From assembly GCF_001677475.2 (NCBI RefSeq), contig NZ_CP015229.1: a stretch of 64,000 bases of DNA. One strand, written 5' to 3'. This document shows, piece after piece, positions 3,001 to 9,000 of the stretch; within the stretch, counting starts at the first letter, position 1; each line of letters opens with the position of its first letter. Position numbers: made by a program. The DNA is from Escherichia coli (GTDB lineage Bacteria; Pseudomonadota; Gammaproteobacteria; Enterobacterales; Enterobacteriaceae).

Positions 3001-6000
3001 CTCAACTTCACTGCGCAATGCCGAGGCATTAATACGATCGTTCAGCTCCTGCCCCAGCAGGGTGCTGTTTATTTTCCCTTCAAAAAAATGGAGATATTTC
3101 TCAGCATCGTTACCCGGCTGGCCAACAGCCTCCACAAATGCCGATTTGCCGACGGTATTCACACTGCGAACGTAAAAATAATAATTATTGCCCGGCTCAA
3201 TATCCGGTCCGGAGGCTATCCAGTACAGCGCCGTACCAAGATAGCGGGCTGTGGTTTCAACCTGCCTGATATCGATAATCCGCTTTTCCGATAACCAGAA
3301 CTCAAACTGTACCGTCGGGTCATATACAGCCAGTTTCGGGACCGCCGTTATCTGAAAATACCCCGGTATCAGTTCAATAGTGACAGGCGCTACCGGTGCC
3401 GCAATCCGGAACGATACCGACGCCGGATCACCCTGCTGCCCCCGGGCATTTACCGCCCGGACCGTCAGCATATAACGCCCCAGCGCCAGTTGTCTGAAGC
3501 GGTATGTGGTTTCCGTCGTCCGGGCTGTGCTGACCAGCCGCTCACTGCCGTCGTCCGCTGCCACGGTCAGGCGAAGCATGAAGCTCACGCCCTTCACCAC
3601 CTTCGGCGTGTCCCAGCGGGCCAGTACCTGATACTCCCCGCTGTCTGCGGTGACTTCGGCGGTAAGGTGCTGCACCGCTGGCGGCGTGACACCATTCACC
3701 GTGCCGCTCTGGTCGCCGTCAAAGTGCGCCCCGTTATCCACGATGGCTTCTTTTTCCGGTACATGCTGCACGGCAGTGATGGCATACGTGCCGTCGTCGT
3801 TCTCACGGATACTCACGCAGCGGAACAGGCGCTGGCGCAGCGTCGGCAGCTTCAGCCCCCACACGCTGTATTCTGCAACGCCGTCAGGAACACGGCTCAC
3901 TTTCACCTTCATGCCGTCGGTGACGGACTGAACCTCCACGCTGACCGGATTGCCATTTCCGTCAACCAGGCTTATCAGAGTGGTGCCGGAGGATGGCAGC
4001 GTGATTTCACGGTCGAGCGTCAGCGTCCGGGTCTGGCTGTTCACCGCCAGCACGCGACCACCGATGCTGATACCCGCATAGTCATCATCGCAGATTTCAA
4101 TGATATCGCCCGGCACATGGCGAAGCCCTTCGGCACCCACGCTGAAGTCCACGGTCTGCGTTTCCAGCAGTTCCGTTTTAATCAGCCACAGCCCGGCGCG
4201 GTGCGCCTGCCCCCGGCTGGTACAGCCAAAGGCATCCATCTTCGTGACGTTACGACCGTAACGGGCAATGGCCTGCGTGTCCTCCACAAGCTCTGTTGCC
4301 GTCTCCCAGCCGTTGTCCGGGTCAATCCAGTTCACCTCAACGGCATTATGGCGGTCCTTCAGGGCGCTGAAGCTGTAGCGGAACGGCGCGCCGTCATCCG
4401 GCATCACCACATTACTGCGGTTATAGGTCCACACCTTATCCGACGGCCGGTCCTGCACGAACGTCAGCGTCTGCCCGTTCCATACCGGCATACAGCGCAT
4501 CGCCGAGCAGAAATCACTGAGCACATCCCACGCCTTACGCTGTGTTGTCAGGTAAGCATTACAGGTGATGCGCGGCTCCGTGCCGCCAAAGCCGTCCGGC
4601 ACTGACTGGTCGCAGTACTGGCCGATGACATACAGCGCCCATTTATCCACATCCGCCGCACCAAGACGTTTCCCCATGCCGTAGCGCGGATGGGTCAGCA
4701 TATCCCACAGACACCAGGCCATGTTGTTGCTGTATGCCGGTTTAAACGTTCCGTCCCAGATACTGCTGTATTGCCGCGTCTGCGGGTTATAGTTCGACGG
4801 CACCTGCAGAATGCGCCCGCGAAGATGATAATTACGACTCACCTGCTGGCTGCCGAACTGCTCCGAGTCCACCTGTACACCGACCAGTGCCGTGTTCGGG
4901 TAGCCCTGTTTCACATCGATGATTTCGGTGTATGACGACCAGAGCGTTTTGTTCTGCAGCTGGTCTGTAGTGCTGTCCGGCGTCATCCTGCGCATCCGGA
5001 TACTGAACGGGCGCGGCGGCAGGTTACCCACCACCACCGAGGCCAGATACTGTGAGGTGGTTTTTCCCTTAATGGTGATGTCTTTTTCCGTCACCCAGCC
5101 ACCGTTACGTTGTATCTGAACCAGCAGGCGGACTTCCGACGGATTCCGGTCCCCCTTTGAGGTGGTTTCCACCAGTGCCTGCACACCGAAGGTAAAGCGC
5201 AGACGGTCGATGTTTGCAGACGTGATGGTCCGGGTAATCGGCGTGTCGTACTTCACTTCCGTACCCAGCACCGTCTCGGAGCCGGAGGATTCAAATCCCT
5301 CCGGCGGTGTCTGCTCCTGCTCACCTGCACGGAACACCACCGTGACACCGGAGATATTGGTATTCCCCTCACTGTCCAGCACCGGCGTACTGTTCAGCAG
5401 CACGCTTTTTAATCCATCCACCGGACCTTCAACCGGCCCTTCGCTGATGGCATCGATCACACTCAGCAACTGCGTGGACTTCAGGTTATCCTTCGCTTCG
5501 CGCGGGGTATGCCCCTTACTGCTGCCTTTACCCATTCCTCACGCTCCATAAACGACAAAACCGCCCGCAGGCGGTTTCACATAAAACATATTAGACGTCA
5601 ACTAGTTTTGCCGACTCGCGCCAACTATACTGGCCGCACCCTTCAGGGCGACATCAAGTCGCGCTTGTTACTGCCTTCGCTGTCTTTTTCCTGTAGCTTT
5701 CCCCTTTCAGTTCGAACATATATCCGTGATGGAGCAGCCTGTCTGCCGCAGCCACCGCCATAGTCTCATCCACGAAGATGCTGCCCCACATGCTGAACGG
5801 ATGGTTACTGGTTATCACCAGGCTCCCACGTTCATAGCGATGCGCTATTAACTCGAACAGCACACCCGTTTCGGCACTATCGCGTTTGACATAGCCAAGA
5901 TCATCCACCACTATCACCCGGTAGCGATCCAGTTTCAGTAGCAGCTCATTCAGTTTCAACTGAGCTCTGGCTTTACGTAGTTCCTGCAACAGCTCTCCTG

Positions 6001-9000
6001 CGCTGTAGAACCGGGCCCGGTAGCCCTGACCTACTACGCCATCCACGATCGCTGCCGCCAGATGGCTTTTCCCCAACCCGCTGGCTCCGAACAGCAGAAC
6101 GTTTTCTCCTGCATCAACCCAGTCTGTCGTTTCACAGAGTTGCCGGAACTGAGCTCCATTCAGTTCCGGCACCTGACTGAAGTCGTATTCGCTCAGCGTT
6201 TTGGCAACTGGCAACCGGGCCTCCTTTTTATAACGACGCAGTTTTTCACTCTCGCGCCACAGGAGTTCTTCATTGCATAGCGTCAGAAGATAGCGCGATG
6301 GTGTCCAGCCTTCTGCCAGCGCTCGTTTTTCCAGAGCGTGCCATTCAGCTCCAACTCGTGTCAGGCGTAGTTTACGCAGGCTATGTTCAAGGTGATGGAT
6401 ATTGCTCACTGCGAACCTCCCTTGCCACGCAGTAGTTGCTCATAACTGCTCAGGTTATGCTGTATCACATTGACTACCGGCAACGCCTTTTCTTTTATAC
6501 CCAGGAAGCGCATCAGCCGGTGCAGATCCACGTTTCCCGGGGTATTCAGCATCTGCTCCATACCTTTTGCCACGACTGAGATATCGTCGTATCCTGCAGC
6601 CAGTTTCAGGGCATGTACCATCAGCCTTCCTGCCATATCGGGCTCCAGATGATTACATAAGCGACGCCACAGCCTCCGCCATTCATCGTCCGGCAGGATG
6701 TCATTTCTCAGCGTTGCATGGCAGAACGCACCGGGCTTTTTTGCCAGACTGTCGATCACATGTCGGAAGTCGATACGACGGGCCCGCGTCTTCCCTTTTT
6801 CTGGTCTGACGCGAGGGCAGCTCATGACCTCGCTGCTGCCAACGTAACAGCTCAGACGATCGTCCCATAACCTGACCCGTAACAGTTGACCTACAAGCCG
6901 GGAAGGTACGCTGTAGACGACGTGCTTCACATTGATGGTACTGCTGCGACTAACCCTCACAGTCAGCTCATCATAGTCAGCACTGCGACGAAGCGGCAGC
7001 GGTTTCAGATGAAGACGTTCTTCCTTGACCAGATCCTGATTGTTACGGTTGTGCCGCATAACCTGCTGAGTGATGAAGGCCTGATATTCTTCTATGGTGC
7101 TGAAGTCGTTACTGCCCCGCAGTATCAGCGCCTGACAGATACGCCTTTTCAGATGTCCGTGGGCACTTTCAACCGAGCCATTTTCGTGGCCCCGACCGGC
7201 ATTATTGTGTACGCCCTGCATTCCGTAGTGCTGACAGAGAGTAGCATAACGCTCAGTCAGCTCGCGGCGTCCATCTTCGCCCTGTTGTTTCCATGCTGCC
7301 CTCAGGCTGTCCGTTTTATGTTCTACCGGCACTCCGCCCAGTTGTCCGAGGGCTTCCTGCAGGCCTTCAGCCAGAGCAGAGAAGCTCTCACCACCCAGAA
7401 CAACCCGCATCCAGCTCCAGTGGCTCCATTCCAGACGGAAGTGATACAACTTATGCGCCAACAACTTACCGGCGATGGTGACAACTACACCTTTCAGTTC
7501 AGTAAAGTCCGACAGGCCTCGCAGGCCGGGCTGATGTTGCTGGCGGAACATGACCTCCTGCTCTGTACCATACTGTAGTTTCCATTCGCGAACCCGCCGT
7601 TGCATTGTTCTTCGAAGGCTGTTGGGGTACTGGCCGGGATATTTATCCTGTAGCATCTCCAGTAGAGTTGTTGGTGTCAGAGCCGGCCTCTCTTTCAACA
7701 GAGGAACAAGCATGCTGTCCCACACAGCTTCCAGAGGATCTTTGCGTGTGCGCCAGTGCCGAACACTGTTTTTTGCCCACTCTCCTTTTTCGATCCGACG
7801 ACCAGAACGGACTGAGATACCAGCCTTCATGGCCGAGATATGCTGAGTTATACCTTTCTTACGCTGAGTCATATAGTAACTGACCTGAGAAGTATTGAGC
7901 GTCACGCCATTTCCTGTTGGATCATGTAAATGACACTCAGGTTACAAAACCGGCCAGAATAATCGGCGCCAGGCGGACTGAGTTATTGTCGTCTCATAAA
8001 AACATTTTGCATCAGCGACCAATCACCACAACCTGACCACCGTCCCCCTCGTCTGCCGTGCTGATCTCCTGAGAAGCCACCCGCGACCCCACGCGCATTT
8101 CACCGTACAGAACAGGCAGAACATTGCCCTGGGCAACCATGTTATCCAGTGAGGAGAAATAGGTGTTCTGCTTACCGTTATCCGTTGTCTGTGTACGGGG
8201 AGTTCTGGCTTTCGGTGCCAGCATCTGCGCCACACCACCAAGTACCATACTGGCACCGAGAGAAAACAGGATACCGGTCATACCACCGGCCCCAATGGCT
8301 GCCCCCCATGCTGCAAGGGTGGCTCCGGCAGTAAAGAATGATCCGGCAATGGCGGCAGCCCCCAGGACAATCTGGAATACGCCACCTGACTTGGCCCCGG
8401 CGACTCTGGGAACAATATGAATCACAGCGCCATCAGGCAGAGTCTCATGTAACTGCGCCGTTAACCCGGACGTGCTGACGTCCCGCCCGGCAATCCGTAC
8501 CTGATACCAGCCGTCGCTCAGTTTCTGACGAAACGCCGGGATCTGCATGACCAGCGCCCGGATGGCTTCGGCCCCCGTTTTCACACGAAGGTCGATGCGG
8601 CGGCCAAATCGTTGTAAATCCCCGTAAAGGCAGATGCGTGCCATGCCCGGTGACGCCAGAGGGAGTGTGTGCGTCGCTGCCATTTGTCGGTATACCTCTC
8701 TCGTTTGCTCAGTTGTTCAGGAATATGGTGCAGCAGCTCGCCGTCGCCGCAGTAAATGGCGGCATGATTCGGCACCGATGAACCAAAACAGCACAGCAGC
8801 ACATCGCCCGGCTGCGCCGCTGTCAGTGCGACACGGTAAAAACCAGTTGCCTCCAGATTATCCAGATAGAGATTCTGACCGTGACGCCACCAGTCATCCT
8901 CGCGATGAAAATCCGGCATCTCAATCCCCGCCAGATGATAAGCATCCCGGAACAGCGTGTAACAGTCCGTCACCCCGTGCTCAAAGCGCCGCCCGGTGAG

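What the first reader, a model, noticed from the sequence alone, without database searches (positions are those of the whole stretch)
5588..7995. IS21-family element inserted in the I-J spacer of the tail operon
In lambda, I and J are about 60 bp apart. Here the flanks of a roughly 2.4-kb istA/istB element reconstitute that spacer, with a short duplicated ATAAAACAT-like segment at the junctions. The insertion disrupts no coding sequence but separates J, lom and stf from the late promoter by an IS carrying its own genes. Tail-tip expression, and therefore infectivity of released particles, may be reduced.
Basis: partly seen in the sequence, partly recalled or inferred. Interest (0 to 1): 0.55.

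Follow-up and report, generated by a model that had tools for sequence, protein, structure and literature searches.

The report
ISEc10 insertion between phage tail genes
A known 2.4-kb jumping gene (ISEc10) sits in the short gap between two tail genes of a Shiga-toxin (Stx2g) prophage without breaking any gene; this is an ordinary insertion and probably does little harm to the phage.

Summary
An intact copy of the known insertion sequence ISEc10 (IS21 family) occupies window 5589-7998 (2410 bp, minus strand). It carries istA (499 aa) and istB (251 aa) and is flanked by a perfect 6-bp target duplication, AAAACA. Removing the element and one duplicate restores exactly the 60-bp I-J spacer of lambda and of many E. 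coli prophages. No gene is broken. All late genes from Nu1 to lom are full length.

The functional claim, reduced J expression and infectivity, is not supported:
- The IS points the same way as the late operon.
- It has no convincing terminator on that strand.
- It leaves the region upstream of the J start intact.
- Late transcription in lambdoid phages is made terminator-resistant by Q, and a full-length Q gene is present.
- The Sakai Stx2 prophage Sp5 carries an intergenic IS in its late region and still transfers.

Prophages with an identical J gene have the empty site, so the insertion is recent. Verdict: an ordinary, known element at a new site. Low interest.

The parts
5589..7998 (-). 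Complete ISEc10 copy (IS21 family), 2410 bp
   Evidence: 98.5-99.8% identical over its full length to copies annotated ISEc10 in E. coli CFT073, RM9088 and others. Its ends are shared with 17 other copies. It is the only copy in the window.
7951..7998 (-). istA-proximal terminal inverted repeat (IRL), reading TATGAGACGACAATAACTCAGTCC... on the minus strand
   Evidence: 48-nt arms, 71% complementary to 5589-5636. An internal repeat of the GACTGAG motif lies at 7808-7819.
5589..5636 (-). istB-proximal terminal inverted repeat (IRR). It contains an outward-facing TTGACG hexamer 7 nt from the tip.
   Evidence: No matching -10 element follows in the flank, and the scan reports no promoter there.
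6406..7905 (-). istA, transposase, 499 aa, GTG start
   Evidence: NCBIfam transpos_IS21 scores 226 bits against a cut-off of 160. Pfam gives Mu-transpos_C_2. It differs by 3-4 residues from the RM9088 and CFT073 copies. This exact protein is on record in 145 blocks of the assembly collection.
5654..6409 (-). istB, AAA+ helper ATPase, 251 aa. Its GTG start overlaps the istA stop (GTGA).
   Evidence: NCBIfam IS21_help_AAA scores 267 bits against a cut-off of 200. Pfam IstB_IS21 E=7.9e-62. Walker A GASGLGKS and Walker B VIVVDD are present.
5583..5588 (.). Target-site duplication AAAACA, J-side copy
7999..8004 (.). Target-site duplication AAAACA, I-side copy. On the transcribed strand it begins 8 nt after the I stop codon.
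8012..8683 (-). Tail assembly gene I (223 aa), intact
   Evidence: About 96% nucleotide identity to lambda I. Full-length tblastn match.
1834..5535 (-). Tail-tip / host-specificity gene J (1233 aa), intact. Its start codon lies 53 nt downstream of the IS end.
   Evidence: Exactly the same 1233-aa protein is encoded in 6 other NCBI assemblies. The gene is annotated gpJ in relatives.
5557..5578 (-). GC-rich hairpin followed by a U-run in the I-J spacer (GAAACCGCC-UGCG-GGCGGUUUU). It is also present in lambda. It lies between the IS and J.
   Evidence: It is conserved in lambda, N96 and RM9088, so it was not created by the IS.
1168..1767 (-). lom (Ail/Lom outer-membrane protein, 199 aa), the next gene downstream of J

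Best explanation
A single, intact copy of the known insertion sequence ISEc10 transposed into the 60-bp spacer between tail genes I and J. ISEc10 belongs to the IS21 family and encodes the IstA transposase and the IstB AAA+ helper. The host element is a complete-looking, lambda-like Stx2g-converting prophage integrated at ssrA. The event left the 6-bp target duplication AAAACA that is usual for this element.

Shown by the sequence: the IS lies in the same direction as the late operon. It begins 13 nt after the I stop codon and ends 53 nt before the J start codon. It leaves every phage gene and the stretch upstream of J intact.

Inferred: on induction, RNA polymerase modified by the phage Q antiterminator reads straight through the 2.4-kb insert into J, lom and stf. 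In that case the insertion is neutral or nearly so for tail production and infectivity. A side effect is that istA and istB are transcribed as part of the late message. The IS then travels with the phage as a passenger.

The insertion is evolutionarily recent, because prophages with a 100% identical J region have the empty site.
For: Identity and ends:
- The element matches ISEc10 copies at 98.5-99.8% over all 2410 bp.
- Its termini are identical in 17 other copies. The target duplication is 6 bp in 12 of the 14 complete copies that have one, with one of 5 bp and one of 6-7 bp.

Simple insertion:
- The empty site is seen in lambda, N96 and RM9088.
- The flanks overlap by exactly 6 bp on those sequences.
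- 2476 = 60 + 2410 + 6.
- The flanks are collinear in the related Stx2g prophage of strain MFDS1022581, which sits at the same ssrA locus.

Recency:
- Contigs with 100% nucleotide identity on the J side have the empty spacer.
- Three other short-read assemblies that are 100% identical break their contigs 8 nt from the IS end, as expected at a repeat.

Intact element and intact phage:
- IstA and IstB are full length and score above curated cut-offs.
- All late genes from Nu1 to lom give single full-length matches.
- J is full length: the same 1233-aa protein is encoded in six other assemblies.
- Q is full length, at 115 aa as in Stx2e prophages.

Little ground for polarity:
- The IS is co-oriented with the operon.
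- No strong minus-strand terminator lies inside it.
- Q keeps the elongation complex terminator-resistant across the late genes (PMC12360218, which cites Yang and Roberts 1989).
- Sp5 of O157 Sakai has an intergenic IS in its late region and still transfers to K-12 (PMC2669165).

Size:
- The att core is at 47177-47196.
- About 1.8 kb of prophage is missing beyond the window start, judged from MFDS1022581.
- The total is then about 49.0 kb with the IS. That is about 101% of lambda's 48.5 kb.
Against: - No expression or infectivity data exist for this prophage, so the neutrality claim is inference.
- The late promoter and qut site were not located with confidence. The consensus scans are uninformative there.
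- An antisense three-gene cluster lies between Q and stx, and its effect on late transcription is unknown.
- The Q protein here is of the phiP27/Stx2e type, not lambda Q. Its processivity over more than 20 kb is assumed from homology.
- One published Stx2g phage (strain 7V) showed no mitomycin induction of stx (PMC3491183). Late expression in this phage group may therefore be weak for other reasons.
- The IS adds about 220 nt of untranslated RNA in all. If Q modification is inefficient, Rho could act there.
Confidence: 0.72

Rival explanations
1. The IS acts as a polar block. Late transcripts end, or fall sharply, inside the 2.4-kb insert. J, lom and stf are then under-expressed, and induced cells release mostly tail-defective, poorly infectious particles. 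The effect would be to cripple spread of the Stx2g phage.
For: The IS lies between the late promoter region (upstream of stx at 29.7 kb) and J. It adds two untranslated stretches of about 100 nt each and a weak hairpin at 7714-7728 on the transcribed strand. IS insertions are classically polar in ordinary operons (general knowledge). [quoted passage not shown]
Against: The IS is co-oriented with the operon and has no strong terminator. A full-length Q antiterminator gene is present, and Q-modified polymerase resists intrinsic and Rho-dependent terminators (PMC12360218). Sp5 of Sakai tolerates an intergenic IS in its late region and remains transferable (PMC2669165). The J start region is unchanged.
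Confidence: 0.2
2. Assembly artefact. A repeated IS was placed wrongly between I and J by the assembler, and the real genome has the empty spacer.
For: ISEc10 is multi-copy in many E. coli genomes, with up to 14 places per genome. No read data are available here. The exact junction was not found in any searched collection.
Against: A mis-join would not create a perfect 6-bp target duplication of the length usual for this IS, at a site whose flanks rejoin exactly. Three independent short-read assemblies that are 100% identical to the window break their contigs 8 nt from the IS end. That is what a real repeat at this position produces.
Confidence: 0.03
3. The IS marks a recombination or rearrangement junction. 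On this view two different prophages were joined by homologous recombination between IS copies, and there was no simple transposition event.
For: The I-side flank is more diverged from several relatives than the J-side flank. For example, against contig L016 the two sides are 96.5% and 100% identical. Lambdoid tail regions are mosaic.
Against: Recombination between two IS copies would leave different flanking hexamers, but here both are AAAACA. The flanks are collinear and abut in every relative examined. Contig L020 is 99.7% identical on the I side and 100% on the J side, with the empty site. The mosaic boundary therefore exists without the IS.
Confidence: 0.03

Closest known systems
ISEc10 (IS21 family) copies in E. 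coli CFT073, RM9088, OkiPb01695 and others, as annotated by NCBI PGAP
   Same: Same 2410-bp length and same termini, with 98.5-99.8% nucleotide identity. Same istA/istB layout with the GTGA overlap. Same 6-bp target duplication.
   Different: Only the location differs. No other genome in the searched collections shows a complete copy at this I-J site. There are 6 nucleotide differences from the RM9088 copies.
IS insertion in the late region of Stx2 prophage Sp5 of E. coli O157:H7 Sakai (PMC2669165)
   Same: An IS sits in an intergenic position within the late transcription unit of a Shiga-toxin prophage and disrupts no protein-coding gene.
   Different: It is a different IS in a different phage type (short-tailed). 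It lies upstream of the lysis genes, not between tail genes. For Sp5, transfer to K-12 was shown experimentally. Nothing has been tested for the phage in this window.
ISEc10 insertions in other lambdoid morphogenesis regions: in lom (Ecol_316, L001), in the tape-measure gene (OkiPb01695, L002), and at the FII/Z junction (GCA_032411945.1, L027)
   Same: Same element, same orientation relative to the late operon, and a 6-bp duplication.
   Different: Those insertions break a gene (lom, tape measure) or replace the ribosome-binding site of Z, where the duplication ATGGCG contains the Z start codon. The window copy spares all coding and start regions.
IS21, the family prototype (from plasmid R68.45; recalled from the literature, not tested here)
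   Same: Two-gene istA-istB operon, a transposase plus an AAA+ helper, imperfect terminal repeats with internal repeated motifs, and a short target duplication. An outward -35-like hexamer (TTGACG) lies at the istB end, as described for the IS21 junction promoter.
   Different: The outermost bases of ISEc10 are TA, not the TG...CA usually quoted for the family. No tandem (IS)2 junction is present in the window. No hybrid promoter towards J is predicted.

Membership tests
IS21 family / ISEc10 | Two consecutive same-strand genes, a long istA followed by a short istB, closely coupled | tested here: met
   istA is at 6406-7905 and istB at 5654-6409, both on the minus strand. The stop and start codons overlap as GTGA.
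IS21 family / ISEc10 | IstA matches the IS21 transposase model above the curated threshold | tested here: met
   NCBIfam NF033546 transpos_IS21 scores 226.4 bits against a cut-off of 160, over residues 12-304.
IS21 family / ISEc10 | Recognisable DDE (rve-type) catalytic core in IstA | tested here: inconclusive
   Pfam reported only Mu-transpos_C_2 (residues 311-366) and no rve hit. The NCBIfam model covers the expected catalytic region, but the D, D, E residues were not mapped.
IS21 family / ISEc10 | IstB is an IstB_IS21-type AAA+ ATPase with Walker A and B motifs | tested here: met
   Pfam PF01695 E=7.9e-62. NCBIfam IS21_help_AAA scores 266.7 bits against a cut-off of 200. GASGLGKS and VIVVDD are present.
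IS21 family / ISEc10 | Imperfect terminal inverted repeats bounding the element | tested here: met
   48-nt arms at 5589-5636 and 7951-7998, 71% complementary. The termini are identical in 17 other copies.
IS21 family / ISEc10 | Short direct target-site duplication (4-8 bp for the family, as recalled) | tested here: met
   AAAACA flanks both ends. The duplication is 6 bp in 12 of the 14 other complete copies that show one.
IS21 family / ISEc10 | Terminal dinucleotides 5'-TG...CA-3' (typical of the family as recalled from ISfinder descriptions; typical rather than strictly defining) | tested here: inconclusive
   The outermost bases are TA at both ends in every copy. TG lies at positions 3-4 of the istA-side end only (TATGAGACG against TATTAGACG).
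IS21 family / ISEc10 | Same named IS: at least about 95% nucleotide identity to the reference ISEc10 | tested here: met
   98.5% identity to the CFT073 copies and 99.75% to the RM9088 copies, all labelled ISEc10 family by PGAP. The ISfinder reference entry itself could not be consulted.
Lambda-type tail operon, I-J intergenic spacer | The flanking genes are orthologues of lambda I and J, and the rejoined flanks give the 60-bp lambda spacer | tested here: met
   The flanks are 95.7-96.8% identical to lambda J02459, with I ending at 15444 and J starting at 15505. The rejoined spacer differs from lambda at one base.
Stx2g-converting lambdoid prophage | An stx2A/B operon of subtype g lies downstream of a Q antiterminator, within a prophage that has integrase and att sites | tested here: met
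   StxA scores 746 bits on the Stx2g model against a cut-off of 736. The stx region is 99.1% identical to the annotated Stx2g prophage of MFDS1022581. Q is at 33870-34217 and the integrase at 45845-47044. The ssrA att core is at 47177-47196.

The most novel reading that the evidence does not exclude
The co-oriented IS may be a functional passenger of an infectious Stx2g phage. Q-antiterminated late transcription would read through istA-istB, so transposase synthesis would be switched on by prophage induction. The phage would then act both as a vehicle for the IS and as an induction-coupled trigger for its transposition.
Probability: 0.3. Interest if true: 0.3.

Novelty: already known. Interest (0 to 1): 0.13.

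Why it matters
It matters little beyond annotation. The practical points are these:
- The element should be annotated as ISEc10 at 5589-7998 with the target duplication AAAACA.
- The prophage should not be scored as tail-defective on the strength of this insertion, because every structural gene is intact.
- The prophage carries stx2g. Whether it can still spread bears on risk assessment for this lineage, and the sequence gives no reason to think the IS prevents that.
- The junction is a convenient lineage marker. Close relatives with an identical J gene lack it, and three draft assemblies appear to share it.

Tried and rejected
1. Search for the occupied allele.
- Across 5426 complete E. coli genomes, only two places covered at least 80% of the I-IS-J query. 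Both carry ISEc10 elsewhere, one in lom and one in the tape-measure gene.
- The 33-nt junction sequence had no exact match in genome contigs, metagenome contigs or viral contigs.

2. Exact-protein look-ups for the right-hand junction in the three draft assemblies that break at 5581.
- H is not on record.
- K is found only in two short contigs of another assembly.
- I is too widespread to filter by sample.
- The I-side junction in those assemblies therefore remains unseen.

3. Second IS copy. The 499-aa ORF at 34471-35970 has the same length as IstA but is a DnaB-type helicase. The neighbouring DnaC-like loader only weakly resembles IstB. Rejected.

4. Hybrid outward promoter at the IS end driving J. 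The TTGACG hexamer is there, but no usable -10 follows, and the scan reports none. Rejected.

5. Orientation bias of ISEc10 in prophages. Five copies are co-oriented and two anti-oriented with local genes. This is not informative.

6. Target-site consensus. The 15 duplications show none.

7. Host species. I suspected a non-E. coli host because the chromosomal flank was about 95% identical to strain MFDS1022581. The best E. coli match to ygaQ-gabT is 98.3%, so the host is E. coli with a divergent region.

8. Three-gene cluster at 31732-33839. PADLOC gave no credible hit.

9. Late promoter. Consensus scans did not locate it convincingly.

10. DNA methyltransferase. I suspected a frameshift, but it is an in-frame difference of 24 aa.
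Full report
**What is there**

The tail genes of a lambda-like prophage run on the minus strand of the window:
- H, 10354-12915
- M
- L
- K, 8581-9324
- I, 8012-8683
- J, 1834-5535
- lom, 1168-1767

Two further minus-strand ORFs lie between I and J, one of 499 aa (6406-7905) and one of 251 aa (5654-6409). Their stop and start codons overlap as GTGA. The first ORF scores 226 bits on the NCBIfam IS21 transposase model, against a cut-off of 160. The second scores 267 bits on the IS21 helper-ATPase model, against a cut-off of 200. The second also matches Pfam IstB_IS21 at E=7.9e-62 and has Walker A and B motifs. 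Pfam found only the Mu-transposase C-terminal barrel in IstA and no rve domain. The DDE triad was therefore not mapped.

**Name and ends**

A megablast of the region against 5426 complete E. coli genomes found matches in 898 of them. The features under these matches are annotated 'IS21-like element ISEc10 family'. I aligned the termini of 17 other copies: eight from complete genomes and nine from contigs that encode exactly the same IstA.
- All 17 share the window's terminal sequences (TATTAGACGTC... at the istB end, ...GTCGTCTCATA at the istA end) wherever an end is preserved.
- Thirteen are exactly 2410 bp long and two are 2409 bp. One is split by an inserted ISEc49. One has its istB side replaced by an IS66-family element.
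- It differs from the two RM9088 copies at 6 of 2410 bases, and from the CFT073 copy at 37.
- IstA and IstB are full length, with 2-4 residue differences from those copies.
- It is the only copy in the window.

**Simple insertion with a target duplication**

The six bases AAAACA flank both ends, at 5583-5588 and 7999-8004. Fourteen other complete copies show a duplication. It is 6 bp in twelve, 5 bp in one and ambiguous between 6 and 7 bp in one. Three copies have none and are presumably rearranged.

Lambda, E. coli N96 and E. coli RM9088 carry the uninterrupted sequence ...GGTTTCACATAAAACATTTTGCATCAGCG.... The two window flanks map onto these sequences with an overlap of exactly 6 bp. In lambda, I ends at 15444 and J starts at 15505, a 60-bp spacer. 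In the window the spacer is 2476 nt, which equals 60 + 2410 + 6.

The prophage carries a Shiga toxin operon.
- stxA is at 28793-29752 and stxB at 28511-28780, both on the minus strand.
- The best NCBIfam model is Stx2g, at 746 bits against a cut-off of 736.
- The stx-lysis region (window 25273-30179) is 99.1% identical to the annotated Stx2g prophage of E. coli MFDS1022581.

That prophage sits at ssrA. The window has the matching 20-nt ssrA 3'-end core at 47177-47196, next to the integrase gene (45845-47044), followed by ypjA, ileY and the gab genes. The MFDS1022581 prophage has the empty I-J site.

The window prophage looks complete.
- Every late gene from Nu1 to lom except J was compared with the N96 prophage. 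Each gives a single full-length, single-frame match.
- J is an intact 1233-aa ORF. Exactly the same protein is encoded in six other assemblies.
- Genes for holin, endolysin and Rz are present.
- A Q-family antiterminator gene lies at 33870-34217 (phrog_79, E=1e-46). At 115 aa it has the same length as in Stx2e prophages.
- Replication genes, repressor-like genes and an integrase gene are present.

**How recent and how widespread**

No complete E. coli genome has ISEc10 at this site. The junction 33-mer is absent from the three large contig collections.

The exact 1233-aa J protein is encoded in six NCBI draft assemblies.
- Three of these contigs are 100% identical to the window on the J side and have the empty 60-bp spacer. 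Several more empty sites with an identical J 5' region turned up through the I protein.
- The other three contigs come from GCA_031299685.2, GCA_031341795.3 and GCA_033745465.1. They are 100% identical to the window over 4.9-5.6 kb. All three begin at window position 5581, which is 8 nt from the IS end.

A contig break at that point in three short-read assemblies is what a multi-copy repeat inserted there would cause. These genomes probably share the insertion. The I-side junction could not be retrieved.

The insertion therefore post-dates the divergence of prophages whose J genes are still identical.

**Does it block J? Geometry**

The IS lies between J and the late promoter region, which must be between Q (33.9 kb) and stx (29.7 kb).

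**Does it block J? Evidence against strong polarity**

1. The IS is co-oriented with the operon.
2. Inside the IS, the pattern scan finds only one weak 5-pair hairpin on the transcribed strand (7714-7728). It finds no promoter on that strand.
3. The 53 nt between the IS and the J start are unchanged. They include a GC-rich hairpin with a U-run that lambda itself has at the same place. If that hairpin terminates unmodified polymerase, it would stop transcripts that start in the IS. It evidently does not stop lambda's own late transcription.
4. [quoted passage not shown] 2008). The Yang and Roberts 1989 title in that review's reference list states that Q proteins suppress pausing at a Rho-dependent terminator. 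From memory, not checked here: Forbes and Herskowitz (1982) showed that Q suppresses polarity in the lambda late operon.
5. There is a direct precedent. [quoted passage not shown]
6. Packaging is not a problem. The prophage runs from the att core at 47196 leftwards past the window start. About 1.8 kb is missing there, judged from MFDS1022581. The total is about 49.0 kb with the IS and 46.6 kb without. Lambda is 48.5 kb, and from memory its packaging ceiling is near 105% of that length.

**Does it block J? Conclusion**

The most likely outcome is read-through with little or no loss of J, lom and stf expression. I rate a real polar defect at about 0.2.

**Caveats**

- None of this is measured.
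- The late promoter and qut site were not located convincingly.
- An antisense three-gene cluster lies between Q and stx.
- The Q protein is of the phiP27/Stx2e type, not lambda Q.
- The Stx2g phage of strain 7V was reported not to raise stx transcription on mitomycin C (PMC3491183). Late expression in this phage group may be low for reasons unrelated to the IS.

**Other readings rejected**

An assembly artefact would not produce a perfect duplication of the usual length at a site whose flanks rejoin exactly. It would also not explain the three independent contig breaks.

A recombination junction between two IS copies would leave non-matching flanking hexamers. All relatives are collinear across the site.

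The different divergence of the two flanks (for example 96.5% against 100% to contig L016) reflects the usual mosaicism of lambdoid tails. It is also seen in contigs with the empty site.

**Comparison and verdict**

This is a copy of a known insertion sequence (ISEc10, IS21 family) at a site not seen elsewhere in the searched collections. It behaves like other ISEc10 insertions in lambdoid prophages.
- Three other copies sit in morphogenesis regions in the same orientation: in lom, in the tape-measure gene and at the FII/Z junction. All three damage a gene or its start region.
- This one does not.

Novelty: already known. Interest is low. The useful outputs are exact coordinates, the recognition that the host element is an intact-looking Stx2g prophage at ssrA, and the caution that this IS should not be taken as evidence that the phage is defective.

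The most novel reading not excluded is that late transcription drives the transposase genes on induction, and that the IS is spread by the phage.

Noticed in passing
window 28511-29752 (minus strand): Intact Shiga toxin operon, with stxA of 319 aa and stxB of 89 aa. The best subtype model is Stx2g (746 bits against a cut-off of 736). The operon lies downstream of two tRNA genes (29843-30096) and a DNA methyltransferase gene. The tail operon in the finding therefore belongs to an Stx2g-converting prophage.
   Followed up: partly
window 31732-33839 (plus strand): A low-GC (about 33%) cluster of three genes (350, 130 and 240 aa) lies antisense between the Q antiterminator gene (33870-34217) and the methyltransferase/stx region. 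It matches only PHROG families of unknown function (12777, 11490, 9664) and has no credible PADLOC hit. The same cluster is present in Stx2e prophages of pig strains and in non-Stx prophages. It could be an uncharacterised moron or defence module sitting in the path of late transcription.
   Followed up: partly
window 47177-47196, and 45845-47044: A 20-nt copy of the ssrA (tmRNA) 3' end lies next to the prophage integrase gene and marks one prophage boundary. The prophage is integrated at ssrA, as is the related Stx2g prophage of E. coli MFDS1022581. ypjA, ileY and the gab genes follow.
   Followed up: yes
L001 3001-5410; L002 6983-12166; L027 2908-5317: ISEc10 has also landed in other lambdoid morphogenesis regions, in the same orientation as the late genes. 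It is inside lom in strain Ecol_316 and inside the tape-measure gene in OkiPb01695, where it is itself split by ISEc49. In GCA_032411945.1 it sits exactly at the Z start codon, with the duplication ATGGCG. Other copies sit near the N/cI, Q and recT regions of prophages (L023, L024, L031).
   Followed up: partly
L018, L019, L021 (position 1 of each contig = window 5581): Three NCBI draft assemblies (GCA_031299685.2, GCA_031341795.3, GCA_033745465.1) are 100% identical to the window through J, lom and stf. All three break their contigs 8 nt from the IS end. They probably share the insertion and the lineage of the window's genome.
   Followed up: partly
window 1834-2300 (3' end of J): J is 1233 aa, against 1132 aa in lambda. 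Its C-terminal, receptor-binding part does not align with the J genes of MFDS1022581 or of the N96 prophage at prfC (gap at about 1917-2213). The same 1233-aa J occurs in N96's other prophage and in six draft assemblies. Host range is likely to differ from lambda's.
   Followed up: no
window 34471-36746 (minus strand): The replication module contains a 499-aa DnaB-type helicase, by coincidence the same length as IstA, and a DnaC-like loader that weakly matches the IstB model (69 bits against a cut-off of 200). These could be mistaken for a second IS21-family element, but they are not one.
   Followed up: yes
window 55500-63300: The chromosomal flank (alpha-amylase family gene, glaH, lhgO, gabD, gabT) reaches at most 98.3% identity to any of 5426 complete E. 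coli genomes, and only about 95% to strain MFDS1022581. The host lineage, or at least this region, is not closely represented among complete genomes.
   Followed up: partly
window 30137-31123 (minus strand): The prophage DNA methyltransferase is 328 aa, against 352 aa in relatives. The difference is in frame, not a frameshift.
   Followed up: yes
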